Shown here: piece after piece, positions 400-17,115 of the stretch
Layout of the letters: every line of letters begins with the position of its first letter
How positions within the stretch are numbered: position 1 is the first letter of the stretch
Assembly (NCBI GenBank): GCA_002723045.1
Contig: PBNI01000030.1
Coordinates: 1 to 32,000 of the forward strand
Reading direction: 5' to 3'
Source: Methanobacteriota archaeon
GTDB lineage: Archaea; Thermoplasmatota; Poseidoniia; Poseidoniales; Thalassarchaeaceae
DNA length: 32,000 nucleotides
Made by a program: the position numbers and the translations under genes
The notes under the pieces: model-generated
Told to the model about the DNA's origin: nothing
What the model saw: only the letters and a program-made list of their open reading frames with translations
The model's database searches: none

Positions 400-2451
400 T
401 CACAACCCCCTTCTTCTGAAGAGCACTGCCAAGGAAATTGCTACTACCAGAGAGGGCACTCCCAAAGACGGCAGTGCTCCATCGACCTCATCGGCGTCAT
501 CAGGTATTTCTGGATCTACTAGTTCTTCCATCAGTAAAGCAACATCTACGGTCGTGCTAGATGAAGTGCACTTGCCGGACTGGTCACAACCTGTGACATC
601 CACATTGATGACTCCAGAGGAAAACTCACTCATATCAATCCATTCGCTCTCCCAAGTATTGCCGGAGACCATAATCTGACCAATCTCCTGTCCATCAACC
701 TCAATCGTGAAAGTCACTGGCTCGCCATCCGGATCGCTATATTGCCCACCGACTCTCCACATAGTCCCATCAAACTCTCCCATTCCACTAATGGTCATAG
801 AGGGGGCTGTGCTTTCCTTCACGATACCAATGTCGATGATATGTTGCAGAGAGAATTGGCCAACCGACACCTCCATCCAGACATTGACTGGACCGGGAAC
901 GATGCCCTGTGGACTCAGGCTCACGACCTGCTGCGGGGAATCTCCTTTTTCGAATTCCTGAATCTCACTTGGTTGTCCACCTTGACTCAGTGCTAGACGC
1001 ACAGTCACGTCTCCACCCCATGAATCTGAAAATGAGATCTTCAGGGGGTGCTGGTCTTGGAGAATTACTTCGGGCGTCGAAATTGAAACAGGGACTCCCA
1101 CGTTCCATGTTCGATTCCCACTGGACTTGCCAGAAGCATCCTTTGCTTCGCATGAAACCTCTGTTACCCCATCCACATTGATCCACATTGACCCATCGAT
1201 GCTCTGTGAAATCTCATTTCCAGCCGAATTGCAGACGACATCTAGGTTGGAAACACCAGACTCATCATCGAACCAAGATGCAATCCCTTCCCAAGATGCT
1301 AACTTGTTCGCTCCTTCCCCGACAACTGGAATCCAAGTCCCATTAACTGGTGCTAGTTGGGTCCAAGTTGGAGCCTCATCAGTCGGAATTGGCGATGTAG
1401 TGAAGTCCGCGAAGACATCCTCTCCAAGAGGCCACTTCTCTCTTGAGAAGTTTGAGTCTAGGGAATAAGTCAGGCTGCCATCGTCATTTGCCAGCAACTC
1501 ATAGCTCGCAGTCCCATCTCCTATGCAACTTCCTCTTATCGGCGCTGTGTCGGTTCCAGGATTCTCCCCATCGAGACCTACGAACCTCCCTTCGCATTCC
1601 TCCCACATGTCCATCCTCAGGTCAGGCATCACTGGGAAAGTGAAGTCCAACCTAGCATTACTCATGTTCGATGAATTGAATGCGATGGTGAAGTCATTGG
1701 GGTCCGTAACACCATCAATCACCATCGTCGCGTTTAGCCAGAGCTCAATCCTGCACTCATCAGCTCCCAAGGACTCGTTGACATCAATGTCACAATCCCT
1801 CTCAGAAGACGGAATTACTGGTATTTCTATACATCCATCTTGGCTGAAACCCTGGCAGTCCCTTGATTGTGAGTGCCTCGTGGGCACTCCGTTGAAATGC
1901 CCGATGTTGGTCTGGTCGTCCTCCCACGTGGTGTTCATCCAACTAACTCCTTCCCCCCCTCTATGAGGGGAGCCATCTCGAATCCCTATTCTAGTGATGC
2001 TATACTCCAGACAATCTGCAGCAATGGAGACCATCGCGTCTATCTCATCAGTGGAGAGCCAACCATCCCCGCCAGAGGGAACAATACCTTCCAGGAAGGC
2101 ATCTAGGTCCTCCCTGATGTCATCAGCCAGTGTCCAGTTTATCCAGGCCCTAGCATCTACCTGGGCAGATTTCCAGTCGTCATTGACACGAACCTCGAAG
2201 ATTGCTTGGTTGTAGATGAAAATATCCTCGAATGTAATGGATCCGCATTGCTCTTCTAGGGAACCGCCACTCCCAAACTGCTCCATTTTTGTTTGTTCTT
2301 TCCTCAACTCTTCCGTCGGTAGATGGAACGTCGAAAATATCAGTATTACGATGACGCAAACTGACCCTAACCCCATCATCCGCATTCCAGTCACTATTGC
2401 CTTCCGGAGACCATAGGACATCATAGTTGCCATGATTGGGAACACAATCAT
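400..2451 (-). CDS. Cell-surface protein of unknown family, with an N-terminal hydrophobic segment and a C-terminal LPSLG-helix-RRR anchor
   Basis: 683-aa ORF with an ATGA start/stop overlap with the upstream gene at 2448-2451. N-terminal segment GLGSVCVIVILIFSTF; acidic body rich in Cys and N-x-S/T; C-terminus GALPSLGVPSLVVAISLAVLFRRRGL. I recognise no domain. Confidence 0.75.
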   Translation of the reverse strand: MIVFPIMATMMSYGLRKAIVTGMRMMGLGSVCVIVILIFSTFHLPTEELRKEQTKMEQFGSGGSLEEQCGSITFEDIFIYNQAIFEVRVNDDWKSAQVDARAWINWTLADDIREDLDAFLEGIVPSGGDGWLSTDEIDAMVSIAADCLEYSITRIGIRDGSPHRGGEGVSWMNTTWEDDQTNIGHFNGVPTRHSQSRDCQGFSQDGCIEIPVIPSSERDCDIDVNESLGADECRIELWLNATMVIDGVTDPNDFTIAFNSSNMSNARLDFTFPVMPDLRMDMWEECEGRFVGLDGENPGTDTAPIRGSCIGDGTASYELLANDDGSLTYSLDSNFSREKWPLGEDVFADFTTSPIPTDEAPTWTQLAPVNGTWIPVVGEGANKLASWEGIASWFDDESGVSNLDVVCNSAGNEISQSIDGSMWINVDGVTEVSCEAKDASGKSSGNRTWNVGVPVSISTPEVILQDQHPLKISFSDSWGGDVTVRLALSQGGQPSEIQEFEKGDSPQQVVSLSPQGIVPGPVNVWMEVSVGQFSLQHIIDIGIVKESTAPSMTISGMGEFDGTMWRVGGQYSDPDGEPVTFTIEVDGQEIGQIMVSGNTWESEWIDMSEFSSGVINVDVTGCDQSGKCTSSSTTVDVALLMEELVDPEIPDDADEVDGALPSLGVPSLVVAISLAVLFRRRGL

Positions 2452-3629
2452 CCGATATGGACAATTTCCCCAGTCCAGTGGAATGCTAGAAGATCTCCAT
2501 CAAGACCCTCGCCAAAGCCAACAATCATGCCTCCGCTGGAACCAATGTAACTTTCATTCCACGAGCCGTCCACTTCTTTCAATATCCACATTGAGCCGCT
2601 GCAGAAATCCCCGTAGAGGTATCCCCCATGTAGGTCGGTAGGCCCCCAATCCATCCAGAATCCACCAGTAATTGAGCAGTTCCCACCCGAATGAGAATAG
2701 GTAGCAATAGGACCAGCGAATGCATCTCGCATGCTCTCGTTAGCCTCACTACCGCCGCACGGAGTACTACTATCCAAGAGATAATCTCCCTCCATCTCAG
2801 CCCAACCTAAGTTTGCTGGATTCTCGAGAGAAACCAGATTGACTTCCTCCCAACAATCCTGACCAACGTCCGAGATCCAGAGCCTGCCATGACTGTCCAG
2901 ATCGAACCTCCAGGGATTCCGCAATCCGTGATGAAGTACGTATGGATCTCCAACAGGGTCGTCCAGAACGGGACTCACCTCGCCATCCAGATAGCTGAAT
3001 TGTAGGATCGTCCCGAGTTCAGTGGATGGGTTCTGACCGTTTTCTTCAGGATCATAGGCGTTTCCGCCATCGCCTACCCCCCATAGGAACTGGCTTCCTC
3101 CAATGTTCAGCAAATGCCCGCCGTTGTGGTTCCTGTATGGCTGCTCGATAGATTTGAGAACTTTGATGCTAGAAACGTCTAGTTCGCCTGAGGGGCTAAT
3201 TCCAGCGGAGGAAAGGACCAGATCTGACTCGTTCGGGCCATCACAAGGTCCATCCTCGACATAAGACAGCAAAATCGTCCTATTATCGCCAAAGCCATCT
3301 GCAAAGGCCATTCCTAGAAGACCCTGCTCAACATGGCACGTGCTGACCATCGAACTCAGATCGGCTATCTCCGATATCTCTGCCCCGTCCCAAGAGTGAA
3401 TTAGTCCAGATAACTCAACTATCCATATCTCGTCATTTGTCGGATGCTTCAGGGAGGAAATAGGGCTGGAGAATCCATCCAAGTACTTGTAACAGGACAA
3501 ATTGTAACTCTCTTGGATGGAGCAATCCCAACTCTCAGGTTCGGGCCAAACGAACCCGTCTTCTTCACCAAGGCATCCAGCAAATGAGGAAGTCACAACT
3601 AGCAGCGAGATAATTGCCCAACTTCTCAT
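2448..3629 (-). CDS. PQQ-dependent (soluble glucose/sorbosone) sugar dehydrogenase-like beta-propeller lipoprotein
   Basis: 393 aa. Signal plus lipobox-like LLVVTSSFAGC. Motifs YRNHNGGHLL, HGLRNPWRFDLD and LWISDVGQDCWEEVN are typical of the GSDH/YliI family. Confidence 0.8.
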   Translation of the reverse strand: MRSWAIISLLVVTSSFAGCLGEEDGFVWPEPESWDCSIQESYNLSCYKYLDGFSSPISSLKHPTNDEIWIVELSGLIHSWDGAEISEIADLSSMVSTCHVEQGLLGMAFADGFGDNRTILLSYVEDGPCDGPNESDLVLSSAGISPSGELDVSSIKVLKSIEQPYRNHNGGHLLNIGGSQFLWGVGDGGNAYDPEENGQNPSTELGTILQFSYLDGEVSPVLDDPVGDPYVLHHGLRNPWRFDLDSHGRLWISDVGQDCWEEVNLVSLENPANLGWAEMEGDYLLDSSTPCGGSEANESMRDAFAGPIATYSHSGGNCSITGGFWMDWGPTDLHGGYLYGDFCSGSMWILKEVDGSWNESYIGSSGGMIVGFGEGLDGDLLAFHWTGEIVHIG

Positions 3630-3638: not shown

Positions 3639-4715
3639 CTACTTCTCTAGGTAGGCGCGGATGCCGGGGACATTTGAAACTGCGTCTGAGTAGGTGCCAA
3701 GATGTTCCTCTGCCGTGCTTGCAACCATTCCAGCCGTGTTAAGAACGTCATTCAGGATCTCCCGCCCCTCGCTATCATCGTCAAGAGCCAATAGCGCGTC
3801 TTGAATCCGGAGCATCGTCTCATCATCCATCCTCGCTGGGTCATACATTACTGGATGGCTGGGTGCCTGACCGAAAGAGGGGAGCATGACAATCTCATCC
3901 CTGTCTAGGCACCAGTCGGGACCATCGGGTACGTCATCCTCGTTCTCATCGCAATACAGTCGGTATGCCGTGTCCTTAACCAGGGCAATATCTCCATGAC
4001 CAGTCATCATGCACTTCAGTGCCCCTTTGTATCCAGAGTACTGAGTCCCTCCCTCTGGAATTTCCGAATCCTTATGGAAGAAGCTCGTTACTGTAGCTCT
4101 GAGGGATTCGATTTCCTCGGGATCGCCTTGAACTTCAGCATATCCATTCCCAATCAGATAACCCATTGGTATCAGCATGCCAGCGCTCTTCAGCCAACCC
4201 GTGTGGCACGACTTCTTGCCCTCCATGAGAGCGAATGGGTCGGTGTCAGGATCATCATCAAGGTATGCGGCTGCGATGTCTGAGTCGGCCCTTACCCATG
4301 CTGCAGCGTTGTAGTAGACCCTGCCATCCGGCTTCTTCTCGACGGCGACTACGTCCAAGTCGTACACCTGGTAACCCAACCATCCGGCAGCCCCATCGAC
4401 CATCGCGATCTCTGCATTGCCATTTGCAACCGCCTCTATCGCAGCCACTTCATCAGCTACTGGGTACACTACCACTTTCTCCCCAGTCAACTCGCTGAGC
4501 TTGTCAGCCATCTCTTGTGGATTTGCATCCCAGAATAGGTATGTGTCCTTCACTTCGTAAGCAATCCTGATACAGTCCTCATCATCACCGCACTCGTCGT
4601 AATCCACTGTGAATAATGCCCATAGAACGGCAGATGATAATAGCAGCCCAACAACCGCAATCGGAATACTCCTTCCCTGTAATGCCTCTCTAACTCTGTC
4701 AATCGCTGAACTCAT
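3639..4715 (-). CDS. Transferrin-like / PhnD-superfamily substrate-binding protein with an N-terminal membrane anchor (candidate Fe(III) binding protein)
   Basis: 358 aa. TM segment [19 protein letters not shown]. Motifs [68 protein letters not shown] and AMVDGAAG. Divergent to the phnC/phnE-like genes. Confidence 0.85.
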   Translation of the reverse strand: [358 protein letters not shown]

Positions 4716-4746
4716 ATTTAGACCCGAAACGCATTTTGTCCTTAAA

Positions 4747-4762
4747 TTTAGGGTTACCTAAA
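4747..4762. promoter_or_regulatory. Palindromic operator candidate TTTAGG-GTTA-CCTAAA (DtxR/IdeR iron-box-like)
   Basis: 6-4-6 inverted repeat centred in the 77-bp divergent intergenic region. It is flanked by A/T-rich TATA-like stretches (TTAAATTT on the left, AAATAT on the right), each about 27-35 nt from the respective ATG. The 17-mer ATTTAGGGTTACCTAAA (4746-4762) recurs exactly at 10382-10398. Confidence 0.6.
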
Positions 4763-4792
4763 TATCAAAAGTCAAATCAGACCCGAAAGACC

Positions 4793-5464
4793 ATGCCAGC
4801 GGTAGTTAGGATTAGCCATCTGGAAGTTGGCTTCCAAGGTCATAGCCTGCTTTCCATAGATGATTTTCATGTCAATCCAGGTGAAGTTCTCGCAATTACC
4901 GGCCCCTCGGGAATTGGAAAAACATCCCTCTTGAAAACTATAGCCGGTCTTCTGAATCCAATATCTGGAACAGTTCATGTTTGTGGAGCGACAATACCCC
5001 AGAGGCCAGAAAGAGGATCTATAGGATACATCCCACAGAAGCTAGGTCTGGTCAGGCACTCTAGTGTCTGGTCCAATGTCATGCTGGGTTCGAGAGCAGG
5101 AAATCCTAGATCAACATCCAGGGAGCATGCGATGAACGCTATCGAAGCCATGGGCCTGGGGGAGAAGAAGAACGAGCCGATTAAACGACTCTCAGGCGGC
5201 CAACAGAGGAGAGTAGCTACAGCCAGGACTCTGGCCCAACGTCCAAGACTTATTTTGGCTGATGAGTTCCTAAGCGAGTTGGACGAAGAAACATCAGAAA
5301 GGGTGGTAAAATCGGTACTGGACTATGTACGATCAAACGAAGCTGCCATGATTCTAGTCGAGCACGACGTCTCTCGAGCAAGGGAGATTTCTGATAGGCT
5401 TCTGGTTATAGATGATGGAAGGCTCAACCCGTTCATCACAGATACTTCGGTCATGGAGGTGTAG
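4793..5464 (+). CDS. ABC transporter ATP-binding protein, PhnC-like
   Basis: Walker A GPSGIGKTS, signature LSGGQQRR, Walker B LILADE, H-loop VEHD. I prefer ATG 4793 (MPAVVRISHLEV) over the TTG at 4736, because the extension would cover the operator and promoter. Confidence 0.85.
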   Translation: MPAVVRISHLEVGFQGHSLLSIDDFHVNPGEVLAITGPSGIGKTSLLKTIAGLLNPISGTVHVCGATIPQRPERGSIGYIPQKLGLVRHSSVWSNVMLGSRAGNPRSTSREHAMNAIEAMGLGEKKNEPIKRLSGGQQRRVATARTLAQRPRLILADEFLSELDEETSERVVKSVLDYVRSNEAAMILVEHDVSRAREISDRLLVIDDGRLNPFITDTSVMEV

Positions 5465-5488
5465 TTTTGGCAAAAATTTTGGCAAAAA
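5465..5488 (+). repeat. Perfect 12-nt tandem duplication TTTTGGCAAAAA x2 at the phnC stop / phnE start junction
   Basis: Read directly from the sequence. It encodes MAKI-LAKI and supplies two in-frame TTG codons (5467, 5479). Confidence 0.9.
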
Positions 5489-6327
5489 TTGACTCAGAAC
5501 TAAGGGAGTTGATAGTTTCCGTCGCAGTCCTACTATTAACATTCAGGATTCTACTGGAACTGACCTCCGGAATAGTCTGGGATTGGAATGGGTGGAGTGT
5601 AATTGAACCCCAATCTTACCCTCCTTGTGAAGCAAACAGGTTTCTACAGTTCACATGTTCAACAGCATGGATCGGAATGATTGAAACAATAAAGATTGCA
5701 ATACTCGCAACCTTCTTCGGTATGATCCTGTCATTGCCCATGGGCCTCCTTAGCTCAAGAAACCTGTTCCCGCAATACATCACCTATCCTTCCCGGGCTG
5801 TAGTCTCAGCATGTCGGAGCCTACCAAGTCTGATTTGGGCCATTATCTTCGTCATCTTGGTGGGACTAGGCCCCACAGCAGGAATAATGGCAATGACCAT
5901 TTACACAGTAGGCTATCTCGGAAAGATGCAGTACGAGGCAATTGAGGGGATGAATAGCGCGCCACTTGAGGCGGCGAACGCCATGGGCCTGACCAAAGCG
6001 GAGTTATCACTGTGGGTGGTTATCCCAGAAATGGCAAATCACCTAATTGCCCAGATGATTTTCATGTTCGAATACAACGTCAGATCTGGGACTGTAATAG
6101 GGATAGTCGGAGCAGGTGGAATTGGATATTACATCAACCTCTATCTGAAGTTCCTCCAATATGAAAAGGTTGGAGCTTATCTTCTGATAATCTTCTTGGT
6201 TGTGATGCTGATCGATTTGGTCTCCATCTATCTTCGCTCATTCTTCACCGACGAGTCCGAAAACAGCAAGCCCACTTGGACAGGAGTATTCTTGCCTCAG
6301 TACGAGAAAACTATCCTATCCGAATGA
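5467..6327 (+). CDS. ABC transporter permease, PhnE-like
   Basis: 286 aa, multi-TM. EAANAMGLTKAELSLWVVIPEMANHLIAQMIFMFEYNVRSGTVIGIVGAGGIGY matches the PhnE-type EAA loop and the NVR..GAGGIG signature. TTG start 3 nt after the phnC stop. Confidence 0.85.
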   Translation: MAKILAKIDSELRELIVSVAVLLLTFRILLELTSGIVWDWNGWSVIEPQSYPPCEANRFLQFTCSTAWIGMIETIKIAILATFFGMILSLPMGLLSSRNLFPQYITYPSRAVVSACRSLPSLIWAIIFVILVGLGPTAGIMAMTIYTVGYLGKMQYEAIEGMNSAPLEAANAMGLTKAELSLWVVIPEMANHLIAQMIFMFEYNVRSGTVIGIVGAGGIGYYINLYLKFLQYEKVGAYLLIIFLVVMLIDLVSIYLRSFFTDESENSKPTWTGVFLPQYEKTILSE

Positions 6328-6330
6328 GAA

Positions 6331-6558
6331 CTAGTAGTCTGCGACGATTCTGATGGCTCCACCGTCATAGAAGATCTGAATGTGATCCTTGGCCTTCGAG
6401 GAGAGGGCTGCCAGTGCCTCGTAGACTTCCTTCTCCTTGACGTTGAAAGCTTCCGCGGCCCTCTTCGTAGACCACGCAACTTCAACAAAGTCCGACGCGG
6501 AAATCCACTTCAGTAGCCTGGCCTCGAAGTCTGTAAGTTCACCCAGTGCCATAGTCAC
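6331..6558 (-). CDS. Small (75 aa) possible winged-helix DNA-binding protein
   Basis: ORF only. The helix-turn-helix-like stretch TKRAAEAFNVKEKEVYEALAALS is followed by a beta-hairpin-like IQIFYDGGAIRIV. I recognise no family. Confidence 0.45.
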   Translation of the reverse strand: MTMALGELTDFEARLLKWISASDFVEVAWSTKRAAEAFNVKEKEVYEALAALSSKAKDHIQIFYDGGAIRIVADY

Positions 6559-6649: not shown

Positions 6650-8557
6650 ATGTTCTGTTTGAGTGGAATATTTGTGCCTACAGGTCAGCCAATAGGCAAT
6701 ACTCTTCTCAGTACTATGATGCTTCTTCTCGTTTCGTTTTCAGGTTGCTTGCAAACAAATTCGGATAATTCAGAATTAGTAACACCAGGACAAGAAGAAC
6801 CATCACACGAAGAGCAGATGGAGGCAGCAATCCCCCTATCAATAGCATTCATCGTGGATGAGGTAACATTCGGCACCCAAAATGACCCTTCCTACATGGC
6901 CGAGAGATTTTCAGATGAGACTATCTTCGATGTTACCCCATATCCCGTTGAATCCGAAGAAGCGATGATCGAGTCTCTCAGGTTCGGTCATGTTGACCTT
7001 GCAATGATGGATGCAGCCTCATCTTGGATGAGTTGGAAGAACTACGACCTACAGGTTCTTCTTGCTGATCAGGAGAACTACGGCAGAACCTACTACAATT
7101 CCAATGCATGGGTCAAATCAGACAGCGAGATCGCCACTTACCACAGTGACGACGATCCGTTGACCGATCCATTTTCATTATTCGAGGGGAAGAAACCCTG
7201 TCACACAGGATGGTTCGACTCCGTGGGGATGCTTCTGCCCATGGGTTTCCTACTGGGCCTTGGATATGCTAATGTCGCTGGAAATCCAAACGATGTGGAA
7301 TCACTACTATTCACAATTCAAGACTTCCTGGATGATGAGCCCGCAATTCCACAAGCAGGCACAAAGTATTACGGATATTCAGGAGCCCTCAGATGCCTTT
7401 CAGATGGAACTGGAGACATCGCATTCCTCCAAGACTCAACAGTATCCGAACACTGTTCTGAAGACGATCAGAACAGGCCCTCGTGGTGTCTCGCAGAGGA
7501 TGAGTACACCGTACTTCCAACCTTTGGTAGGTCTCCCAGCAACGCATTAATGTTCAATCCCGACTTCCTCGATTCTGAAACTTCGCAGAAGATTTCCGAA
7601 GAATTTCTTAGGCTCAGCGGAATCAACGAAATGGACCAGACACTACGATCTCTGTTCGGAACCTCAGGTTTTACCTCTACCACTTCCTTCGAGCATTTGG
7701 ATGGATACTCCTCCCTCATTTACAACATTCCCGGATTGCAGGCATACTTCGAGGACCCTAGTAATTCCGAACAAGTCAATCTGAGTGTAGAAGAAATCGT
7801 AATCGGTGTAATTGGCCCTCTGTCAAACTCCACTGCATTTTCTTTCGAATTCTTGGCCGATTCAATTAGCGATGATGTGGGAATAAATGTGAGTATTTCA
7901 GAATTCGAGAATCATATTAGTCTGGTGGAAAACCTTTCAAATGGCGTCATAAACATTGCAATAACCGATGGAATCTCCTCTTGGAAGGCATGGAAGCATG
8001 ATGGCATGTCGGTTCTGGCGTCATTATTGAACGAACATGAGAGAGCATTTTCACAATCTCTTGCCATCGTCAAATCAGACAGCGAATTAGCCAGCTCATC
8101 AGATCCGTATACTTTGATGAGTGGCCTCTCTCCATGCTTTGCAGGCCCAAGTCATCCGAGCACACTATTGGCGACAGGACATCTGATTGGAGAGGGACTG
8201 ACTAACGATTTACCAGATATAGGAAACTCCACGATTTCTGAGATAATCCAATCAGTCTTCGATTCAAATTATAGCTTCCCCGGGGAGGAGGCAGAATTCC
8301 ATGGAACCAATGGCGCTCTTAGATGCCTATCAGAGGGAGGCGGCGACATTGCATTTGTTATCAACGATGGGCAAGCAATCTTCTGTAACGATGACTTACA
8401 GCCTACAGATGAAACGTGGTGTCTAGATTCAGAAGCATATGCCTCATTGCCGTCTCTCGGGGATCTTCCATATCGATCCTTCATCTACGACCCCACAATA
8501 TTGGATGTAGTATCACGCACAGCTATCCTAAACTCGATACTATCACTAAATTACTAG
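6650..8557 (+). CDS. Tandem two-lobe transferrin-like lipoprotein
   Basis: 635 aa; alternative start ATG 6716 (MMLLLVSFSGC lipobox-like). Lobe 1 (about 6820-7750): GKKPCHTGWFDSVGMLLPMG, YYGYSGALRCLSDGTGDIAFLQD, TYYNSNAWV, LAMMDAAS. Lobe 2 (about 7790-8554): LSPCFAGPSHPSTLLATGHLIG, FHGTNGALRCLSEGGGDIAFVIND, AITDGISS. Confidence 0.8.
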   Translation: MFCLSGIFVPTGQPIGNTLLSTMMLLLVSFSGCLQTNSDNSELVTPGQEEPSHEEQMEAAIPLSIAFIVDEVTFGTQNDPSYMAERFSDETIFDVTPYPVESEEAMIESLRFGHVDLAMMDAASSWMSWKNYDLQVLLADQENYGRTYYNSNAWVKSDSEIATYHSDDDPLTDPFSLFEGKKPCHTGWFDSVGMLLPMGFLLGLGYANVAGNPNDVESLLFTIQDFLDDEPAIPQAGTKYYGYSGALRCLSDGTGDIAFLQDSTVSEHCSEDDQNRPSWCLAEDEYTVLPTFGRSPSNALMFNPDFLDSETSQKISEEFLRLSGINEMDQTLRSLFGTSGFTSTTSFEHLDGYSSLIYNIPGLQAYFEDPSNSEQVNLSVEEIVIGVIGPLSNSTAFSFEFLADSISDDVGINVSISEFENHISLVENLSNGVINIAITDGISSWKAWKHDGMSVLASLLNEHERAFSQSLAIVKSDSELASSSDPYTLMSGLSPCFAGPSHPSTLLATGHLIGEGLTNDLPDIGNSTISEIIQSVFDSNYSFPGEEAEFHGTNGALRCLSEGGGDIAFVINDGQAIFCNDDLQPTDETWCLDSEAYASLPSLGDLPYRSFIYDPTILDVVSRTAILNSILSLNY

Positions 8558-8842
8558 ATGTTCCTCGATAATTTCACAACAATGGGCAGCGAATACACAG
8601 GTTGCTACGATATCTCGATCCACAAGATAGACGAGACATCCCCCAGAGGTGCGTGCGGCTCTGAGATTCTTTCCAATTCTCTGCATTCAACTGGAGTTTC
8701 CAGAACCACCTCGCAGAGTCAACTAGGTCACCTTTCCACGCTAATCGGCAATTTGCCAAACCAGTTGTTAGTCAATTTCTTAGTTGAAAATTAAGAATGA
8801 CCCATAACAACATACTAAGTGTACATTTTTCTTCATAAGAGC

Positions 8843-9259
8843 ATGAACAATGTAGACGTACATCTTGCTGACACAGATCGTTCTACTGCCAGTCGAATAT
8901 TCTGGTTCATTCTCGGCCTCACCTCAATGACACTGGGATTGATTGGTATCCCGGTTCCAGGCCTGCCAACCACCCCTTTCATGATTCTAGCAGCAGCTTG
9001 CTTCGCTCGTTCCAGTCAGAGATTCTATGATTGGGTAATCAATAACAAATTGTTCGGCACTCACGTTAAGAGCTACAGAGAGGGCAATGGAATCCCAAAG
9101 AGGAGTAAGCCGATGATCCTGGCAACAATGTGGACCTTTGTTTTGTTCGCGGTCCTAGTTGCCATTCCAGATGATGTTCCCATCTCCAAGGCCGCCACAC
9201 TGATTCTAGCATTAATCGGGACCATCTTCATTCTTAGGATTCCTAGTTCTGAACATTAG
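8843..9259 (+). CDS. YbaN/DUF454 family inner-membrane protein
   Basis: GLIGIPVPGLPTTPFMILAAACFARSSQRFYDWV is the DUF454 signature. Start uncertain (GTG 8819 or ATG 8843). The 3' end overlaps hemH by 17 nt, convergently. Confidence 0.75.
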   Translation: MNNVDVHLADTDRSTASRIFWFILGLTSMTLGLIGIPVPGLPTTPFMILAAACFARSSQRFYDWVINNKLFGTHVKSYREGNGIPKRSKPMILATMWTFVLFAVLVAIPDDVPISKAATLILALIGTIFILRIPSSEH

Positions 9260-10334
9260 AGAATCCCTTGTCGATCAACTTTGAAAGTCCTGATATCCAA
9301 TCTGGATTATCGTTGAGACATTTGACTACGGAGAAATGATTTCCACCATGACTGATGTAGTGCTCACGGACCTCAATGTCCAATTCCTCCAGCGTCTCTA
9401 AACCGTCAGCCAGGAATGCCGGAGAGACAACAACCACGTCTAGATCCTTCTTCGCCAAGTCTTCCACCACAGATAGAGTGGAGGGCTTCAGCCACTTCGC
9501 CGGCCCCAGCCTACTCTGGAAACTTATCGACCAAGCGTCATCAGACAATCCCAATTCGTCAACCACAGACTTTGCGGTCATACTGCAATGATGGGAGTAG
9601 CACATCGAGTTCGCCTCGTCCCTTCGGGCACAGCAACCGTCAACTTTCTGGCAGTATGAACCGGTTTTGTCAGCCCTCTTGACATGAGATATTGGCAGTC
9701 CGTGGAACGAGAATAGTAAGTGAGACCTCTCATTTAGGTGGGGTCTGATAGATCTCACCAGTGGCATGATGAACTCAGGCTCTTCTTCGAAGTGGCCCAG
9801 TTCGAAGAGATCCGGACTCCAACCAATTTCTCTCAATTGCCGAAAAGCCTCTTTCATAGAAGACTCAGTCGTGGCTTGAGCATGGTGTGGGAAAAGCGGA
9901 GCCAGTAGCAACTCCTCAACCCCTTCGGATCTGAGACTCTGCAAAGCAGATCCGATGCTCGGATTGCCATACCTCATCCCTACCTCGCACGCTACGTCCC
10001 CCATCTCCAATTGGAGCTTCTCAGCCATTCTTCTGGTATAGACTCGGAGAGGAGAATCACCATCCATCCAGATACTAGCATACCTTGGTGCTATGTTTCT
10101 CGGCCTAATCCTCAGAATTACCCCCCTAACCAGAAGATGCCTTAGTATGGTAGGAATGTCAATGACATCTGGATCCAGCAAGAATTCTCTCAAGTACTCC
10201 CTGACTGAACCCACGGTCGCCTCATCGGGCGTTCCAATGTTCATCAGCAGAACGCCTCTTTTTACCACAAACTCCACGCTCCAAAATCTAGTTATAATCG
10301 TAAGTTTCAGAAACTCTGTTTTCGAAAATAACAT
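9243..10334 (-). CDS. hemH: Ferrochelatase with an internal Cys-rich insert
   Basis: GVLLMNIGTPDEATVGSVREYLREFLLDPDVIDIP, SLRSEGVEELLLAPLFPHHAQATT and LLFSFHGLP are ferrochelatase-like. Start uncertain: GTG 10361, ATG 10334, or GTG codons near 10283-10295 just before VKRGVLLMN. Confidence 0.85.
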   Translation of the reverse strand: MLFSKTEFLKLTIITRFWSVEFVVKRGVLLMNIGTPDEATVGSVREYLREFLLDPDVIDIPTILRHLLVRGVILRIRPRNIAPRYASIWMDGDSPLRVYTRRMAEKLQLEMGDVACEVGMRYGNPSIGSALQSLRSEGVEELLLAPLFPHHAQATTESSMKEAFRQLREIGWSPDLFELGHFEEEPEFIMPLVRSIRPHLNERSHLLFSFHGLPISHVKRADKTGSYCQKVDGCCARRDEANSMCYSHHCSMTAKSVVDELGLSDDAWSISFQSRLGPAKWLKPSTLSVVEDLAKKDLDVVVVSPAFLADGLETLEELDIEVREHYISHGGNHFSVVKCLNDNPDWISGLSKLIDKGFSNVQN

Positions 10335-10382
10335 TTCTATTGAACAAATCAATATGGTCACTGCAGTAGAACAAAATTGAGA

Positions 10383-10398
10383 TTTAGGGTTACCTAAA
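10383..10398. promoter_or_regulatory. Second copy of the palindromic box TTTAGG-GTTA-CCTAAA
   Basis: Identical to 4747-4762. Lies in the hemH / lipoprotein divergent intergenic region, followed by the TATA-like TTATAA at 10401-10406. Confidence 0.6.
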
Positions 10399-10425: not shown

Positions 10426-10441
10426 TTTAGGGTGCCCTAAA
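10426..10441. promoter_or_regulatory. Third box, perfect 7-2-7 palindrome TTTAGGG-TG-CCCTAAA, abutting the lipoprotein ATG
   Basis: Read directly; it ends 1 nt before ATG 10442. Confidence 0.55.
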
Positions 10442-11695
10442 ATGAATGGTAAACTACTAAGCTTAATGATGACAATACTGATGATGGCCTCAGCCCTTGC
10501 TGGGTGTGCAGGAGACGATGTTGACCTGGATGCAGAGGACGGGGGCTACGAATACGCCTCCAACGTCGACAACCACCGCATGCTGATGGGAGATGTCTGT
10601 GACATCAAGGATCTATCTGGAGCATACGACTGGGACGGCGTTAAGGACATCTATGAGAACGGAGAGCACGCAGAGAAGTCCGACGGTTCCTACAGGACCC
10701 TAATGGGCTTCGCTGATGCTTCGGGCAAGAACCACGCCTATGACGCATTCTATGGTGCAGACGGGTCATGGCATGACTTCGTGAACGCCGCCATTAGCGG
10801 TTCTGGGGCATTCGATGGAGAGTCCGACACAGTCAGAGACCAAGCCACAGAGAAGGGAATCCAGAACGGAGTCATGACTGCATACGCAATCCACGAGCTA
10901 AATGCCGCTATTATCAAGGCAGAGGCTGGAAACTGGGGCCCAGATGATGCTCAGCACGCCTGGGACGAAGGATGGGCATTCTATCACGGACCAGATGATT
11001 CTAACCACGACTACGACGGATGCGGTCCATACGCCACTGCCGACAAGAGGGCTGGAAACTTCGGGACCGCCAACTCTGGCGGCACCGCCGCAACTAACGT
11101 AGCTACATTGGCTGCAATGAATGCCGGCCTCACCGCTATGCAGAACGAGGACATGCAAGGGCTAGTCGACGCACGAGATGAGATTCTCAAGAACATCGTC
11201 ATCGTCTATTCACAGGCTTCCGTAAGGTACGCATCGAAGATGACAGACGACCTAGCCGCTGGAGACACCTCAGACTACGACAAGCACCAGGCAGAGGGCC
11301 ACTCCTTCTACAGGGTCATCGAGGCATACGTTGCTGAGTACACTTCGATCTGCTACAACATGGTCTCCCACACGGTATCCTCGGATACCTCACAGGCATC
11401 TTGCGAGGCATGGATGTACTTGGAGAACTACACGTCTTCCAACGACCCAGATGGGGAGGAGTTCACCGGCTGCTACAACTCTGTTACACACTCTCAGCAC
11501 GAGGGAATGTCACAGGAGGAGTGCGAGGCTTTCGGATGGTACGCAAACTACTACTCCGACAAGATCGTAGCAATGTTCGACCTATCCAACGATGGAGACG
11601 CTTCCGCAGATTACGAAGCTGACATCAGGGCTTGGCTACAGCCTGCATGGGATCATTACGGGATTACCGCAGGAGACATAGGAACTCTACAGTAA
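10442..11695 (+). CDS. Secreted lipoprotein of unknown function (candidate iron-regulated metal/haem-binding protein)
   Basis: ATG 10442 gives MNGKLLSLMMTILMMASALAGC (signal plus lipobox-like). Acidic, His/Trp/Tyr-rich and helix-looking. Internal duplicate: ICYNMVSHTVSSDTSQASCEAWMY and GCYNSVTHSQHEGMSQEECEAFGWY. Confidence 0.8.
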   Translation: MNGKLLSLMMTILMMASALAGCAGDDVDLDAEDGGYEYASNVDNHRMLMGDVCDIKDLSGAYDWDGVKDIYENGEHAEKSDGSYRTLMGFADASGKNHAYDAFYGADGSWHDFVNAAISGSGAFDGESDTVRDQATEKGIQNGVMTAYAIHELNAAIIKAEAGNWGPDDAQHAWDEGWAFYHGPDDSNHDYDGCGPYATADKRAGNFGTANSGGTAATNVATLAAMNAGLTAMQNEDMQGLVDARDEILKNIVIVYSQASVRYASKMTDDLAAGDTSDYDKHQAEGHSFYRVIEAYVAEYTSICYNMVSHTVSSDTSQASCEAWMYLENYTSSNDPDGEEFTGCYNSVTHSQHEGMSQEECEAFGWYANYYSDKIVAMFDLSNDGDASADYEADIRAWLQPAWDHYGITAGDIGTLQ

Positions 11696-15237: not shown

Positions 15238-15240
15238 GCA

Positions 15241-16278
15241 ATGGAAACGATATCAGAGAAACATATTGCAAACTCGAAATTTCAGATTTTAATGATTGCC
15301 GCACTATCCCTCGCCACACTCATTTTCGCACTACTGGCAATGGGGTGGGGGTCATCTTCAAACCTTGACATGACGGCAACAATGAGAATCCTCCTTGGTT
15401 TGGATGAAGCAGATGATTTACAGTCAGACATTCTTTGGAAACTAAGACTCCCAAGGATATTGATGGCAATTATCGCGGGAGTGGCTCTTGCTACTGCTGG
15501 AGCACTAATGCAAGGCTGCCTAGGAAACCCACTCGTCTCCCCTCTGACTCTTGGAGTGGCTTCTGGTGCTGCTTTAGGGGCCGCATTCGCCATTATTCTG
15601 GATTTTTCTGTCCTACCAGACTTGGCAATAGTGGCGAACTCCTTTCTTTTCTCATTACTTGTCGTCGGAATAATAATTCAACTAGGAAAAATGCGATCCA
15701 TTTCCGCTGAATCCTATATTTTAGTTGGTATTGCAATCACTTTCATTGCAGGTGCCATCGTTTCGACAATGCAGTACTTTGCCACAGATGCACAACTATC
15801 TCAATTGACACATTGGTCATTCGGAAGCCTATCAAGACCAACTCTTTCCAATGTAATTTGGATAGGGGCAGCAGTGGTATCTCTGTTGCCAATGGCAATG
15901 TTGTGGTCTTGGGATTTGAATGCGATGTCCTTGGGGGGGGATGACTTTGCCATCTCCACTGGAGTAGATCCCGAATCTACTAGGAAGAACATACTGATCC
16001 TCTCAGCCTTGATGACATCAATAGTGATCTCGTTTACTGGACTGATTGGATTTGTAGGACTAGCCGCGCCGCACATGAGTCGCCTGATCATTGGTAATGA
16101 CTACAGGAAATTGATACCATGCTCCGCTGTCTTCGGAGCTTTCCTGATGCTCTTTGCAGATACCGTCGGAAGAATTCTATTCGCACCAATTGTGATTCCC
16201 GTGGGAATAATGCTATCCATAATCGGTGGGCCACTTTTTATGTATCTTCTACTGAAGTATAGGGGGGCGGGGTTCTGA
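15241..16278 (+). CDS. FecCD-family ABC permease (HmuU/BtuC-like)
   Basis: LRLPRILMAIIAGVALATAGALMQGCLGNPLVSPLTLGVASGAALGAA is the family signature; multi-TM. Confidence 0.9.
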   Translation: METISEKHIANSKFQILMIAALSLATLIFALLAMGWGSSSNLDMTATMRILLGLDEADDLQSDILWKLRLPRILMAIIAGVALATAGALMQGCLGNPLVSPLTLGVASGAALGAAFAIILDFSVLPDLAIVANSFLFSLLVVGIIIQLGKMRSISAESYILVGIAITFIAGAIVSTMQYFATDAQLSQLTHWSFGSLSRPTLSNVIWIGAAVVSLLPMAMLWSWDLNAMSLGGDDFAISTGVDPESTRKNILILSALMTSIVISFTGLIGFVGLAAPHMSRLIIGNDYRKLIPCSAVFGAFLMLFADTVGRILFAPIVIPVGIMLSIIGGPLFMYLLLKYRGAGF

Positions 16279-17060: not shown

Positions 17061-17115
17061 TAGAAGGATATTATGAAAAATTGGCACATTGGTCCTAGCA
17101 GAAATAGAATAGAAA

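What the first reader, a model, noticed from the sequence alone, without database searches (positions are those of the whole stretch)
3639..6327. Transferrin-lobe-like binding protein coupled to a PhnC/PhnE-type ABC importer
The N-terminal part of the 358-aa protein looks PhnD-like ([36 protein letters not shown]), and its partner genes are PhnC/PhnE-like. Its core motifs, however, track human serum transferrin N-lobe as I recall it. The pairs are [20 protein letters not shown] vs [43 protein letters not shown] vs [31 protein letters not shown] vs [17 protein letters not shown] vs FYYAVAVV, and AMVDGAAG vs VTLDAGL. In this by-eye alignment all four Fe(III) ligands (Asp63, Tyr95, Tyr188, His249) and the carbonate-anchoring Thr120 are kept, while Arg124 is Lys. 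Published work proposes that transferrins and algal phytotransferrins descend from PhnD-like binding proteins. This gene looks like a prokaryotic form still wired to its ABC transporter, that is, a monolobal transferrin feeding an importer rather than a receptor-endocytosis route.
Basis: partly seen in the sequence, partly recalled or inferred. Interest (0 to 1): 0.85.

Follow-up and report, generated by a model that had tools for sequence, protein, structure and literature searches.

The report
Archaeal transferrin-like iron-uptake ABC system
A marine archaeon (Marine Group II) has a membrane-anchored, single-lobe relative of blood transferrin that keeps the full iron- and carbonate-binding residue set, sits beside an ABC importer so far annotated as a phosphonate transporter, and shares a metal-repressor-type DNA switch with known low-iron genes, so it most likely imports iron, not phosphonate.

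Summary
The window comes from a Marine Group II (Poseidoniales) archaeon. Gene 3639-4715(-) encodes a 358-aa, N-terminally anchored binding protein, divergent from a PhnC-like ATPase and a PhnE-like permease.

HMMER alignment to a verified human transferrin N-lobe places D107, Y135, T172, K176, Y229 and H287 on Asp63, Tyr95, Thr120, Arg124, Tyr188 and His249. All six are invariant in 30 homologues.

A family profile scores 65.8 bits on the human transferrin N-lobe and 10.4 bits on E. coli PhnD. PhnD shares only the Tyr95-equivalent residue. Pfam places the protein between the two families (Phosphonate-bd 86 bits, Transferrin 56 bits).

New evidence: a palindrome, TTTAGG-N4-CCTAAA, lies 31-32 nt from both divergent start codons and twice upstream of a FEA1-related lipoprotein gene. 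Across 1.44 Mb of Poseidoniales loci it occurs 172 times (about 1.5 expected). 170 of these lie beside starts of transferrin-like, PhnC-like or FEA1 genes, or less often DtxR-like, flavodoxin and a few other genes.

The palindrome tracks the ligand set. It precedes 67/70 ligand-complete monolobal and 10/10 ligand-complete bilobal genes, and 0/20 degenerate bilobal paralogues.

Best reading: an iron-repressed Fe(III) importer. Iron binding itself is untested.

The parts
3639..4715 (-). Monolobal transferrin-like substrate-binding protein (358 aa). It has an N-terminal membrane helix (residues about 16-35) followed by a type-II binding-protein fold. Ligand-equivalent residues are D107, Y135, T172, K176, Y229 and H287, with a Cys170/Cys235 pair.
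   Evidence: ORF. Pfam Transferrin 56.2 bits and Phosphonate-bd 86.4 bits, both above cut-off. PDB hits are all transferrins. Ligand columns are invariant. AF2 model pLDDT 88.7 with helix 16-35. Foldseek hits transferrins and AioX/PtxB equally.
4747..4762 (.). Operator-like palindrome TTTAGGGTTACCTAAA. It lies 32 nt from the SBP start codon (4715, minus strand) and 31 nt from the ATPase ATG (4793). This is where archaeal TATA/BRE elements of leaderless genes would lie.
   Evidence: The same motif lies upstream of 70/71 SBP genes in other Poseidoniales, typically 31-32 nt from the ATG. There are 172 exact hits against about 1.5 expected in 1.44 Mb.
4793..5464 (+). ABC transporter ATPase, PhnC-like. 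The longest ORF starts at TTG 4736, but that extension contains the operator, so ATG 4793 is the likely start.
   Evidence: Pfam ABC_tran 109 bits. The best NCBIfam model is PhnC at 132 bits, below its cut-off of 266. 37 of the 172 exact motif hits lie beside PhnC-like gene starts.
5467..6327 (+). ABC transporter permease, PhnE-type.
   Evidence: TIGR01097 PhnE 216.8 bits against a cut-off of 216.7. Pfam BPD_transp_1. Nearest solved relatives are MetI-type permeases.
2448..3629 (-). GSDH-family (PQQ-dependent dehydrogenase-like) beta-propeller lipoprotein. It starts 9 nt after the SBP stop and is probably co-transcribed. Its role is unknown.
   Evidence: Pfam GSDH 66 bits. Present in 29/34 loci with at least 8 kb of flank and directly downstream of the SBP gene.
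6334..6552 (-). Small conserved ORF (72 aa) of unknown function. It lies just after the PhnE-like gene on the opposite strand in both MGII families.
   Evidence: No Pfam family. Recurs in 14/34 loci and in the same position.
6650..8794 (+). Bilobal transferrin-like lipoprotein paralogue with degenerate sites. The N-lobe has D,Y,T,Y but Lys/Arg124->Asp and His249->Asn. The C-lobe has lost the set. There is an in-frame TAG at 8555-8557 where close relatives have GAG. No operator lies upstream.
   Evidence: AF2 pLDDT 71.7. The Foldseek top 50 are all full-length transferrins, best melanotransferrin at 4.6e-26. TAG vs GAG. 0/20 degenerate bilobals have the operator.
10383..10398 (.). Second copy of the identical 16-mer TTTAGGGTTACCTAAA, upstream of the FEA1-related gene.
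10426..10441 (.). Third operator copy, TTTAGGGTGCCCTAAA, abutting the FEA1-related gene's ATG at 10442.
   Evidence: The same two-operator layout occurs upstream of Fea1 in L002, L011 and L045.
10442..11695 (+). FEA1-related lipoprotein. It belongs to the family of Chlamydomonas FEA1 and diatom ISIP2a phytotransferrin and is a co-regulated partner.
   Evidence: Pfam Fea1 68 bits. NCBIfam NF038033 367.9 bits against a cut-off of 250. 51 of the 172 exact motif hits lie beside Fea1 gene starts.

Best explanation
This is an iron-repressed, high-affinity Fe(III) uptake system of Marine Group II archaea.

Proposed steps:
1. The 358-aa protein is a true, monolobal member of the transferrin lineage, tethered to the outer face of the membrane by an N-terminal helix.
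2. It is inferred to bind Fe(III) through Asp107, Tyr135, Tyr229 and His287. A synergistic carbonate is inferred to be held by Thr172, Lys176 and the N-terminus of the helix at Ala178/Gly179.
3. It is inferred to dock on a homodimeric PhnE-type permease powered by a PhnC-like ATPase, which takes the iron into the cell.
4. A dimeric metal-dependent repressor, most likely of the DtxR/IdeR family, is inferred to bind the palindrome TTTAGG-N4-CCTAAA. The palindrome sits over the promoter elements of both divergent genes and of the FEA1-related gene. When iron is plentiful it would shut off all three.

Shown here: homology, ligand conservation, gene linkage, the shared palindrome, and its correlation with the ligand set.
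Inferred: Fe(III)/carbonate binding, the transported species, repressor identity and iron responsiveness, and the role of the co-transcribed GSDH-like lipoprotein.
For: (1) Transferrin-type site.
- All four Fe ligands, the carbonate Thr, the basic residue and the Cys118-Cys194 pair align to hTf.
- They are invariant in 30 homologues.
- 127 of 202 lobes scored show D-Y-T-K-A-G-Y-K-H. Lys at the Arg124 position also occurs in several eukaryotic transferrins in the set.

(2) Not PhnD-like at the site.
- E. coli PhnD has G, Y, G, S, S, G, E, N, D in those columns.
- The family profile scores PhnD at 10.4 bits and hTf at 65.8 bits.
- A profile search of 1.84 billion representative proteins returns only 574 hits: archaeal relatives, ichthyosporean and animal/algal transferrins. 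It does not reach the generic PhnD family.

(3) Regulon.
- The palindrome occurs 3 times in the window, only at the SBP/ATPase and FEA1 promoters.
- It occurs 172 times against about 1.5 expected in 91 sequences. 170 hits lie beside starts of Tf-like (96), Fea1 (51), PhnC-like (37), DtxR-like, flavodoxin and a few other genes; one of the two left unassigned precedes a ZIP-domain gene.
- It precedes 70/71 SBP genes.

(4) Repressor.
- In L010, three copies lie between a Fe_dep_repress/Fe_dep_repr_C/FeoA gene and a bilobal Tf-like gene.
- That regulator carries Met and Cys-x-x-Glu-His where DtxR has Met10 and Cys102/Glu105/His106 (site residues from my knowledge).
- The half-sites TTAGG/CCTAA equal the outer pentamers of the DtxR consensus TTAGGTTAGCCTAACCTAA (PMC7762939).

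(5) The operator tracks the ligand set: 67/70 complete monolobals, 10/10 complete bilobals, 0/20 degenerate bilobals.

(6) The neighbourhood is iron-themed: FEA1-related gene, ferrochelatase, Peripla_BP_2/FecCD/ATPase importer, flavodoxin, HugZ-like protein. The same themes recur in relatives.

(7) A survey of tropical single-cell genomes, in which 80% of the archaea were MGII, found no phosphonate-consuming archaea.
Against: - No biochemical data exist. Fe(III)/carbonate binding is inferred from residue identity only.
- The 3-D convergence of the four ligands could not be checked, because no coordinates are returned.
- Foldseek ranks AioX, PtxB and ArrX (oxyanion binders of the PhnD family) level with transferrins at about 1e-13 to 1e-14.
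- Pfam Phosphonate-bd outscores Transferrin (86.4 vs 56.2 bits).
- The permease reaches the PhnE equivalog cut-off. No Fe(III) importer with a PhnE-type permease is known to me.
- A truncated GDPD-family gene lies directly upstream of the SBP gene in many lineages and GpsA is often nearby. This hints at organophosphate metabolism, although the operator lies between GDPD and the SBP gene.
- The DtxR-family regulator's best NCBIfam match is MntR-type (99 bits, below cut-off), so manganese responsiveness is not excluded.
- The regulator gene is adjacent in only one fetched locus.
- Published MGII genomics lists the system as phosphonate transport (PMC6336850).
Confidence: 0.7

Rival explanations
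1. It is an ordinary PhnCDE-type importer of phosphonate, phosphite or phosphate, as currently annotated. The resemblance to transferrin would then only reflect shared ancestry of the fold and the anion site.
For: Pfam Phosphonate-bd is the top hit at 86.4 bits. The permease meets TIGR01097 PhnE (216.8 vs 216.7) and PhnC is the best ATPase model. GDPD and GpsA are frequent neighbours. JGI and NCBI names and Tully 2019 call it phosphonate transport. Foldseek finds AioX/PtxB/ArrX as strongly as transferrins.
Against: The PhnD equivalog scores 23.6 against 261 and TIGR01098 scores 38 against 112. E. coli PhnD shares only one of the site residues and scores 10.4 bits against the family profile. 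The Asp/Tyr/Tyr/His set is invariant. The genes share an operator with the FEA1-related gene, and in individual loci with flavodoxin, ZIP and DtxR-like genes, and with no gene identified as phosphate-related. The operator is lost exactly where the ligands are lost. No phosphonate catabolism gene is in the window. Archaeal phosphonate consumers were absent in GORG-Tropics.
Confidence: 0.12
2. It is a metal-regulated binding-protein/ABC system for another substrate. Candidates are Mn, another hard cation (Al, Ti, Ga-like), or a ferric complex with a different synergistic anion such as phosphate, oxalate or citrate, rather than Fe(III)-carbonate.
For: DtxR-family regulators include Mn sensors, and the best NCBIfam match of the L010 regulator is MntR-type. 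A ZIP-domain gene carries the operator in L041. Lys replaces Arg124. The PhnE ancestry of the permease could suit an anion-containing species. From my knowledge, transferrin sites bind many trivalent and tetravalent metals in vitro; PDB titles list Ti, Yb, Ru, Cr and Bi complexes.
Against: The regulator carries the Met and Cys/Glu/His pattern of Fe-sensing DtxR/IdeR rather than the Asp/Glu pattern of MntR (from my knowledge). The co-regulated partners are of the FEA1 low-iron family, plus flavodoxin in one locus. Lys at position 124 occurs in several eukaryotic transferrins in the set. Carbonate is the abundant candidate anion in seawater (inference).
Confidence: 0.13
3. The protein binds iron at the cell surface but does not feed the adjacent ABC transporter. 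It might act as a sequestering or storage shuttle, a sensor like AioX, or a donor to the FEA1-related protein or another permease.
For: In some lineages the SBP gene lies with GDPD and GSDH but with no ABC genes within 10 kb (L008). PhnC/E-like genes are found in only 22/34 loci with at least 8 kb of flank. AioX, a structural relative, is a sensor partner.
Against: SBP and ATPase genes are divergent from one shared operator in this window. In Poseidoniaceae the ligand-complete bilobal gene is followed directly by PhnC/E-like genes. 37 of the 172 exact motif hits lie beside PhnC-like gene starts. No sensor kinase is adjacent.
Confidence: 0.05

Closest known systems
Eukaryotic transferrins (serum transferrin / lactoferrin N-lobe; Pfam PF00405)
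   Same: Homologous fold. Same Asp/Tyr/Tyr/His ligand columns. Same Thr120 and helix-5 anion site, and the same Cys118-Cys194 pair and 'SCHTG' motif. Bilobal forms also exist in MGII.
   Different: Monolobal, membrane-anchored and prokaryotic. Encoded next to an ABC importer instead of working through receptor endocytosis. Lacks the Cys-rich insert shared by animal and ichthyosporean proteins. No equivalent of the Lys206-Lys296 pair: K247 is present but Asn lies at the 296-equivalent position (read by eye from the sequences, not tested by alignment). The MGII bilobals arose by a separate duplication in an NJ tree, and the modelled lobe packing differs (rmsd about 23 A, low pTM).
PhnCDE phosphonate ABC transporter (E. 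coli PhnD; PF12974, TIGR03431)
   Same: Same binding-protein family in the wide sense. The N-terminal half is most alike. The anion site at a helix N-terminus (PhnD S127-T128-S129) aligns with Tf R124-S125-A126 and SBP K176-S177-A178. The partners are PhnC/PhnE-like.
   Different: The PhnD equivalog is far below cut-off. Only the Tyr93/Tyr95-equivalent site residue is shared. There are no C-P lyase or phosphonatase neighbours. The promoter carries a metal-repressor-type operator.
FbpABC / FutABC / HitABC ferric-ion ABC importers ('bacterial transferrin' FbpA)
   Same: The proposed mechanism is the same: a binding protein captures free Fe(III) with a synergistic anion and two Tyr plus His and a carboxylate, then delivers it to an ABC permease under an iron repressor (from my knowledge).
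   Different: Different binding-protein and permease families; no Pfam or NCBIfam hit to them. FbpA's site is regarded as convergent with transferrin's, whereas here the site is homologous.
Phytotransferrin ISIP2a / FEA1 (PF07692)
   Same: A cell-surface protein for carbonate-dependent Fe(III) uptake in marine microbes (PMC7676907). A FEA1-related lipoprotein is co-regulated with this system.
   Different: ISIP2a works by endocytosis in eukaryotes. The FEA1-related gene here is a separate protein, not the binding protein under study.
Ichthyosporean membrane-anchored transferrin-like proteins (Amoebidium, Abeoforma, Ichthyophonus)
   Same: These are the closest eukaryotic relatives by profile score: about 100-175 bits per lobe, against about 45-90 for the animal and algal lobes scored. 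Same D-Y-T-K/R-Y-H set, except in one Ichthyophonus protein (P0154) with His at the Tyr95 position.
   Different: Eukaryotic signal peptide, C-terminal anchor and the Cys-rich insert shared with animal transferrins. No ABC partner is expected.
DtxR/IdeR iron boxes
   Same: Palindromic operator with the same outer pentamers TTAGG...CCTAA. A DtxR-family gene is adjacent in L010.
   Different: Here 4 bp lie between the TTAGG and CCTAA pentamers; in the 19-bp DtxR box 9 bp do. The centre is variable. Binding is untested.

Membership tests
Transferrin family (PF00405) | Profile match above the curated threshold | tested here: met
   PF00405 scores 56.2 bits against a cut-off of 20.3, E 4.3e-15. All 120 listed homologues carry PF00405.
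Transferrin family (PF00405) | Fe(III) ligands Asp63, Tyr95, Tyr188, His249 at homologous positions | tested here: met
   D107, Y135, Y229 and H287 by HMMER and MAFFT alignment to the verified hTf N-lobe. Invariant in 30 homologues.
Transferrin family (PF00405) | Synergistic-anion site: Thr120, Arg124, helix-5 N-terminus (Ala126, Gly127) | tested here: met
   T172, K176, A178 and G179 are invariant. Lys at the Arg124 position is also found in several eukaryotic transferrins in the set.
Transferrin family (PF00405) | Conserved Cys118-Cys194 pair of the second subdomain | tested here: met
   C170 and C235 align to C118 and C194 and are invariant. Disulfide formation itself is not testable here.
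Transferrin family (PF00405) | Two-subdomain type-II binding-protein fold with the four ligands converging on one cleft site | tested here: inconclusive
   The fold is confirmed: AF2 pLDDT 88.7, Foldseek to the hTf N-lobe about 1e-13. Ligand geometry could not be measured because no coordinates are returned. PhnD-family oxyanion binders score equally.
Transferrin family (PF00405) | Reversible Fe(III) plus carbonate binding | not testable with these tools
   Needs purified protein (spectroscopy, ITC).
Transferrin family (PF00405) | Bilobal secreted glycoprotein acting through a receptor | tested here: not met
   358 aa, one lobe, N-terminal membrane helix. ABC importer genes are adjacent. Monolobal eukaryotic transferrins are known (from my knowledge), so this is not strictly defining.
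PhnD phosphonate-binding protein (TIGR03431 / TIGR01098 / PF12974) | Profile match above the curated threshold | tested here: inconclusive
   The broad Pfam PF12974 model is met (86.4 vs 27). The NCBIfam PhnD equivalog is not met (23.6 vs 261.1) and the subfamily TIGR01098 is not met (38 vs 112.05).
PhnD phosphonate-binding protein (TIGR03431 / TIGR01098 / PF12974) | Phosphonate-contacting residues of E. coli PhnD (Tyr93, Ser127-Thr128-Ser129, Asp205 and others, from my knowledge of the 2-AEP complex) | tested here: not met
   Aligned columns: PhnD Y93 = Y135 (shared); S127/T128/S129 = K176/S177/A178; E158 = Y229; D205 = H287; G65 = D107.
PhnD phosphonate-binding protein (TIGR03431 / TIGR01098 / PF12974) | Encoded with PhnC and PhnE | tested here: met
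   PhnE TIGR01097 scores 216.8 vs 216.7. PhnC is the best ATPase model but below cut-off (132 vs 266).
PhnD phosphonate-binding protein (TIGR03431 / TIGR01098 / PF12974) | Association with phosphonate catabolism (C-P lyase, PhnWX, PhnA, PhnYZ) or phosphate-starvation control | tested here: not met
   No such gene is in the 32-kb window or in flanks of relatives. The promoter carries a DtxR-box-like palindrome shared with FEA1. Archaeal consumers were absent in GORG-Tropics.
FbpA/FutA ferric-binding proteins | Sequence membership in the FbpA/FutA binding-protein families | tested here: not met
   No Pfam or NCBIfam hit to these families at E<=1. The resemblance is functional only.
DtxR/IdeR-controlled regulon | Palindromic operator overlapping the promoter, recurring at iron genes and at the regulator's own gene | tested here: met
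   172 hits against about 1.5 expected, 170 at the gene starts listed. Positioned 31-32 nt from start codons. Three copies lie next to the DtxR-family gene in L010. The outer pentamers match the DtxR consensus.
DtxR/IdeR-controlled regulon | Fe(II)-dependent binding of the regulator to the operator | not testable with these tools
   Needs EMSA or footprinting. The regulator has the Met and Cys-x-x-Glu-His pattern, but its best NCBIfam match is MntR-type, below cut-off.

The most novel reading that the evidence does not exclude
The transferrin iron/carbonate site arose in archaeal ABC-importer binding proteins, and these proteins are the prokaryotic stock from which eukaryotic transferrins came.

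Supporting pattern:
- There is a graded series: TGSSG-type binding proteins of Nitrosopumilus and Heimdallarchaeota that already carry Asp/Tyr/Thr/Tyr/His; then 'SCHTG'-plus-disulfide proteins of Thermoplasmatota, including MGII; then membrane-anchored proteins of ichthyosporeans (unicellular relatives of animals); then animal transferrins.
- MGII independently reinvented the bilobal form.

If so, the 'phosphonate transporter' counted as a core MGII trait is really the main inorganic-iron uptake route of the most abundant archaea of the surface ocean. It would be carbonate-dependent, like diatom phytotransferrin.
Probability: 0.35. Interest if true: 0.9.

Novelty: new variant of a known kind. 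Interest (0 to 1): 0.8.

Why it matters
Three consequences follow if this holds.

1. Annotation. It would correct a published and database annotation. 'Transport of phosphonates' is listed as a core trait of Marine Group II archaea (PMC6336850). The evidence here points to iron uptake instead, which changes how these abundant surface-ocean heterotrophs are placed in iron and phosphorus budgets.

2. Evolution. It supplies a living example of the proposed intermediate between PhnD-like binding proteins and transferrins. This intermediate is still wired to an ABC importer and carries the full ligand set. The origin of transferrin becomes testable by biochemistry on a simple soluble domain.

3. 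Ecology. If binding needs carbonate, as in transferrin and diatom phytotransferrin, archaeal iron uptake would share their sensitivity to ocean acidification.

The operator motif also gives a ready handle for defining the iron regulon of an uncultured group.

Tried and rejected
- **Structure as a discriminator.** Foldseek against PDB gives AioX, PtxB, ArrX and transferrins all at about 1e-13 to 1e-14 with TM about 0.5, because of hinge differences. It cannot separate the two families.
- **Ligand geometry** could not be measured, since models are not returned as coordinates.
- **Literature.** Ten full-text searches found no paper on an archaeal or MGII transferrin. Several apparent hits were the word 'transferring'. 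McQuaid 2018 itself is not held, so I cannot say whether its trees included such archaeal sequences.
- **MGII expression.** The coastal MGII metatranscriptome paper does not mention phosphonate or iron genes.
- **Nitrosopumilus iron papers** gave nothing on the TGSSG-type binding proteins.
- **FEA1-related protein.** It has no solved relative by sequence, and the 120 homologues listed were all 86-92% identical. That is too shallow for a useful AF2 model, so I spent the second model on the bilobal paralogue instead.
- **Palindrome as two back-to-back TATA boxes.** I considered this and rejected it as the whole explanation. The same 16-mer recurs at non-divergent promoters (Fea1, GDPD-to-SBP spacers), its centre varies while the arms are fixed, and it is absent from all other promoters in 1.44 Mb.
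- **Ferrochelatase as a regulon member.** Not claimed. Its likely true start is about 140 nt from the nearest operator, and the association comes from an over-long ORF call.

Full report
**What is there**

The window carries a 358-aa ORF at 3639-4715(-). It is divergent from an ABC ATPase (longest ORF from 4736; probable ATG at 4793) and a permease at 5467-6327(+). Homologues carry source names such as Candidatus Thalassarchaeaceae, Poseidoniales and Thermoplasmatota. The window therefore comes from a Marine Group II (MGII) archaeon.

The protein has an N-terminal helix (AF2 helix 16-35) followed by a binding-protein fold, modelled at mean pLDDT 88.7.

**Check of the observation**

The protein matches transferrins and lactoferrins in the PDB at E 1.7e-18, and the best 60 hits are all transferrin-family chains. 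A profile of 30 homologues reaches E 1.3e-38.

HMMER alignment of that profile to the human N-lobe and a MAFFT alignment give these pairings:

| MGII protein | Human transferrin |
|---|---|
| D107 | Asp63 |
| Y135 | Tyr95 |
| T172 | Thr120 |
| K176 | Arg124 |
| A178/G179 | Ala126/Gly127 |
| Y229 | Tyr188 |
| K247 | Lys206 |
| H287 | His249 |
| C170/C235 | Cys118/Cys194 |

All are invariant across 30 homologues of 49-87% identity. Lys at the Arg124 position also occurs in several eukaryotic transferrins recovered here, so it is not an anomaly.

The partner genes are PhnC/PhnE-like. The permease scores 216.8 bits on the PhnE equivalog (cut-off 216.7). PhnC is the best ATPase model at 132 bits (cut-off 266).

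**Transferrin or PhnD?**

Pfam gives Phosphonate-bd 86.4 bits and Transferrin 56.2 bits, both above threshold. Three results show that it reflects an intermediate position rather than PhnD identity.

First, curated PhnD models fail badly: TIGR03431 scores 23.6 against 261, and TIGR01098 scores 38 against 112.

Second, the family profile scores the human N-lobe at 65.8 bits and E. coli PhnD at 10.4 bits. A profile search of 1.84 billion representative proteins returns only 574 hits, which are archaeal relatives and eukaryotic transferrins. It does not reach the huge generic PhnD family.

Third, Pfam scores form a gradient:

| Protein | Phosphonate-bd (bits) | Transferrin (bits) |
|---|---|---|
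| E. coli PhnD | 268 | none |
| Nitrosopumilus-type (P0242, P0226) | 151-171 | none to 22 |
| This protein | 86 | 56 |
| Other Thermoplasmatota | 54-86 | 63-80 |
| Ichthyosporean proteins | 47-92 | 113-216 |
| Human transferrin N-lobe | 24 | 584 |

At the site itself, E. coli PhnD has G, Y, G, S, S, G, E, N, D in the transferrin ligand and anion columns. It shares only the Tyr95-equivalent residue (Tyr93). Its Ser127-Thr128-Ser129 anion motif aligns with transferrin Arg124-Ser125-Ala126, and its Asp205 aligns with His249. That these PhnD residues contact 2-aminoethylphosphonate is from my memory of the PhnD structure paper. The same structural positions are thus used in both families, and the MGII protein carries the transferrin identities.

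Foldseek cannot separate the families. AioX, PtxB, ArrX and transferrins all score about 1e-13 to 1e-14.

**A shared operator links the system to iron genes**

The 77-bp spacer between the two divergent start codons contains the palindrome TTTAGGGTTACCTAAA (4747-4762). It lies 32 nt from the binding-protein ATG and 31 nt from the ATPase ATG. This is where TATA/BRE elements of leaderless archaeal genes lie (inference).

The identical 16-mer and a close variant occur at 10383-10398 and 10426-10441. These lie upstream of, and abutting the ATG of, a gene that is a FEA1-related lipoprotein (Pfam Fea1 68 bits; NCBIfam NF038033 367.9 bits against a cut-off of 250). FEA1/ISIP2a is the low-iron-induced, Fe(III)-binding 'phytotransferrin' family of algae (PMC7676907). 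These three are the only matches in the 32-kb window.

I then fetched 80 loci from species-representative genomes and 10 from metagenomes.
- In 1.44 Mb, TTAGG-N4-CCTAA occurs 172 times against about 1.5 expected from base composition.
- 170 of the 172 lie beside a gene start: transferrin-like genes (96), Fea1 (51), PhnC-like (37), and a few others, among them DtxR-like and flavodoxin genes; one of the two left unassigned precedes a gene with a ZIP-transporter domain.
- 70 of 71 monolobal binding-protein genes have it, usually 31-32 nt before the ATG.
- The arms are fixed (flanking T 95%, A 96%) while the 4-bp centre varies, as expected for a dimeric repressor site.

In locus L010, three copies lie between a bilobal transferrin-like gene and a divergent gene with Fe_dep_repress, Fe_dep_repr_C and FeoA domains. 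That regulator has Met in 'SAEMM' and 'ACRMEHV', where DtxR has Met10 and Cys102-x-x-Glu105-His106. The assignment of these as the Fe-sensing site, against Asp/Glu in MntR, is from my knowledge. Its best NCBIfam match is nevertheless an MntR-type model below cut-off, so metal specificity is not settled.

The half-sites equal the outer pentamers of the DtxR consensus TTAGGTTAGCCTAACCTAA (PMC7762939), with a shorter spacer.

**The operator tracks the ligand set**

MGII genomes also encode bilobal proteins of this family.
- Where both lobes keep D-Y-T-K-Y-H, 10 of 10 genes have the operator. These are mainly Poseidoniaceae, where the bilobal gene is followed directly by PhnC/E-like genes.
- Where the set is degenerate, 0 of 20 have it.
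- Ligand-complete monolobals have it in 67 of 70 cases.

This correlation between an intact Asp/Tyr/Tyr/His set and the metal-type operator is the strongest indirect evidence that the residues serve the regulated, metal-related function.

**Neighbourhood**

The window from 2.4 to 18.4 kb is iron-themed. In order it holds:
- a GSDH-like lipoprotein, probably co-transcribed with the binding protein and present in 29/34 well-flanked loci;
- the importer;
- the degenerate bilobal paralogue;
- DUF454;
- ferrochelatase;
- the FEA1-related gene;
- a large surface protein;
- a Peripla_BP_2/FecCD/ATPase importer;
- flavodoxin;
- a HugZ-like protein.

Relatives show the same themes.

Against this, a truncated GDPD-family gene often lies directly upstream of the binding-protein gene, and GpsA is often near. 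The operator lies between GDPD and the binding-protein gene, so GDPD need not belong to the regulon.

No phosphonate catabolism gene is present. A single-cell genome survey in which 80% of archaea were MGII found no phosphonate-consuming archaea (bioRxiv 10.1101/2020.11.04.368217). Yet 'transport of phosphonates' is listed as a core MGII trait (PMC6336850).

**Evolutionary placement**

Lobes were scored against the family profile.
- The D-Y-T-(K/R)-Y-H set plus the Cys pair occurs in other Thermoplasmatota lipoproteins, in ichthyosporean proteins (Amoebidium, Abeoforma, Ichthyophonus), and in animal and algal transferrins.
- The ichthyosporean proteins are membrane-anchored. They score about 100-175 bits per lobe, against about 45-90 for the animal and algal lobes scored. 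They share the Cys-rich insert of animal transferrins.
- More distant binding proteins from Nitrosopumilus and a Heimdallarchaeota MAG have a PhnD-like 'TGSSG' anion motif and no Cys pair, but already carry Asp/Tyr/Thr/Tyr/His.

A neighbour-joining tree (269 columns, 200 bootstraps) supports the 'SCHTG' clade at 83%. It places eukaryotic transferrins (64%) among Thermoplasmatota proteins with weak support (19-24%). It shows the MGII bilobals arising inside MGII, so their duplication is separate from the eukaryotic one. The direction of transfer is not resolved.

**Mechanism proposed**

Shown: homology, site conservation, gene linkage, the common operator, and the operator-ligand correlation.

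Inferred:
1. At low iron, the repressor leaves the palindrome.
2. The anchored protein captures inorganic Fe(III) with carbonate.
3. It docks on the PhnE-type permease dimer, and the PhnC-like ATPase drives release and import.
4. The FEA1-related lipoprotein and the GSDH-like lipoprotein assist at the surface in ways not yet known.

I put this at 0.7. The rivals are an ordinary phosphonate/phosphite/phosphate importer (0.12), another metal or another synergistic anion (0.13), and an iron binder that does not feed this transporter (0.05).

**Novelty**

Automated names already hint at the relationship: NCBI uses 'PhnD/SsuA/transferrin family', and one JGI entry reads 'melanoma-associated antigen p97'. 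Ten full-text searches found no paper describing an archaeal transferrin homologue or an iron role for this MGII system. The library lacks most subscription journals, and McQuaid 2018 could not be read.

I rate it a new variant of known kinds (the transferrin family; binding-protein-dependent ferric import), with interest 0.8.

Noticed in passing
window 6650-8794 (+), stop at 8555-8557: The bilobal transferrin-like paralogue has an in-frame TAG where two close relatives (L074, L013) have GAG (Glu). The frame then continues for 78 more codons homologous to their C-terminal extension. This is a nonsense mutation, an assembly error or read-through; which one is undecided.
   Followed up: partly
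window 6650-8557 and loci L013-L057: Degenerate bilobal paralogues keep the fold and the Cys pair but have lost the His, the basic residue, or the whole ligand set. They also lack the operator (0/20). Their function is unknown. This recalls iron-free transferrin relatives such as the melanotransferrin C-lobe or the inhibitor of carbonic anhydrase.
   Followed up: partly
window 2448-3629 (-): A GSDH-family (PQQ-dehydrogenase-like) beta-propeller lipoprotein starts 9 nt after the binding-protein gene. It is present in 29/34 well-flanked loci and lies directly downstream in every locus inspected. Its role is unknown; a surface reductase or ligand-processing role would be speculation.
   Followed up: partly
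window 6334-6552 (-): A 72-aa ORF with no Pfam family sits right after the PhnE-like gene on the opposite strand, in both Thalassarchaeaceae and Poseidoniaceae loci (14/34).
   Followed up: partly
window 10442-11695 (+): A FEA1-related lipoprotein (algal low-iron / phytotransferrin family) in an archaeon, with two operator copies upstream. At least 734 homologues were found among the candidates scored; the 120 listed are 86-92% identical, and the few that carry names are Poseidoniales or Thalassarchaeaceae.
   Followed up: partly
window 14143-18444 (+): A Peripla_BP_2 / FecCD / ATPase importer (siderophore- or haem-type) is followed by flavodoxin (17116-17595) and a PNPOx/CREG + DUF2470 protein weakly like HugZ haem oxygenase (70 bits against a cut-off of 240). 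No operator copy was found here.
   Followed up: partly
window 9243-10361 (-): Ferrochelatase lies divergent from the FEA1-related gene. Its likely true start (Met about 40 codons in) is about 140 nt from the nearest operator, so co-regulation is not claimed.
   Followed up: partly
L041 7563-9928: An operator copy lies 31 nt upstream of a 773-aa fusion of a Peptidase_M28 domain and a ZIP metal-transporter domain.
   Followed up: partly
L092/L093 6113-10706: A Nitrosopumilus 'phosphate/phosphite/phosphonate' binding protein (P0242) carries Asp/Tyr/Thr/Tyr/His at the transferrin ligand columns. It sits after CbtB-CbtA (cobalt-transporter family) and a small wHTH gene, and before its own ABC genes. 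A Heimdallarchaeota relative (P0219) has the same residue set.
   Followed up: partly
L002 4339-4920, L008, L009, L011, L045: A short (about 190 aa) protein matching only the N-terminal half of the GDPD family lies directly upstream of the binding-protein gene in many lineages, often after GpsA. It is absent at that position in this window.
   Followed up: partly
window 20001-28075: G+C rises to 0.55-0.59, against 0.45-0.52 elsewhere. This coincides with a 2196-aa ORF (21485-28075, minus strand) that combines a subtilase domain with many RCC1 repeats.
   Followed up: no
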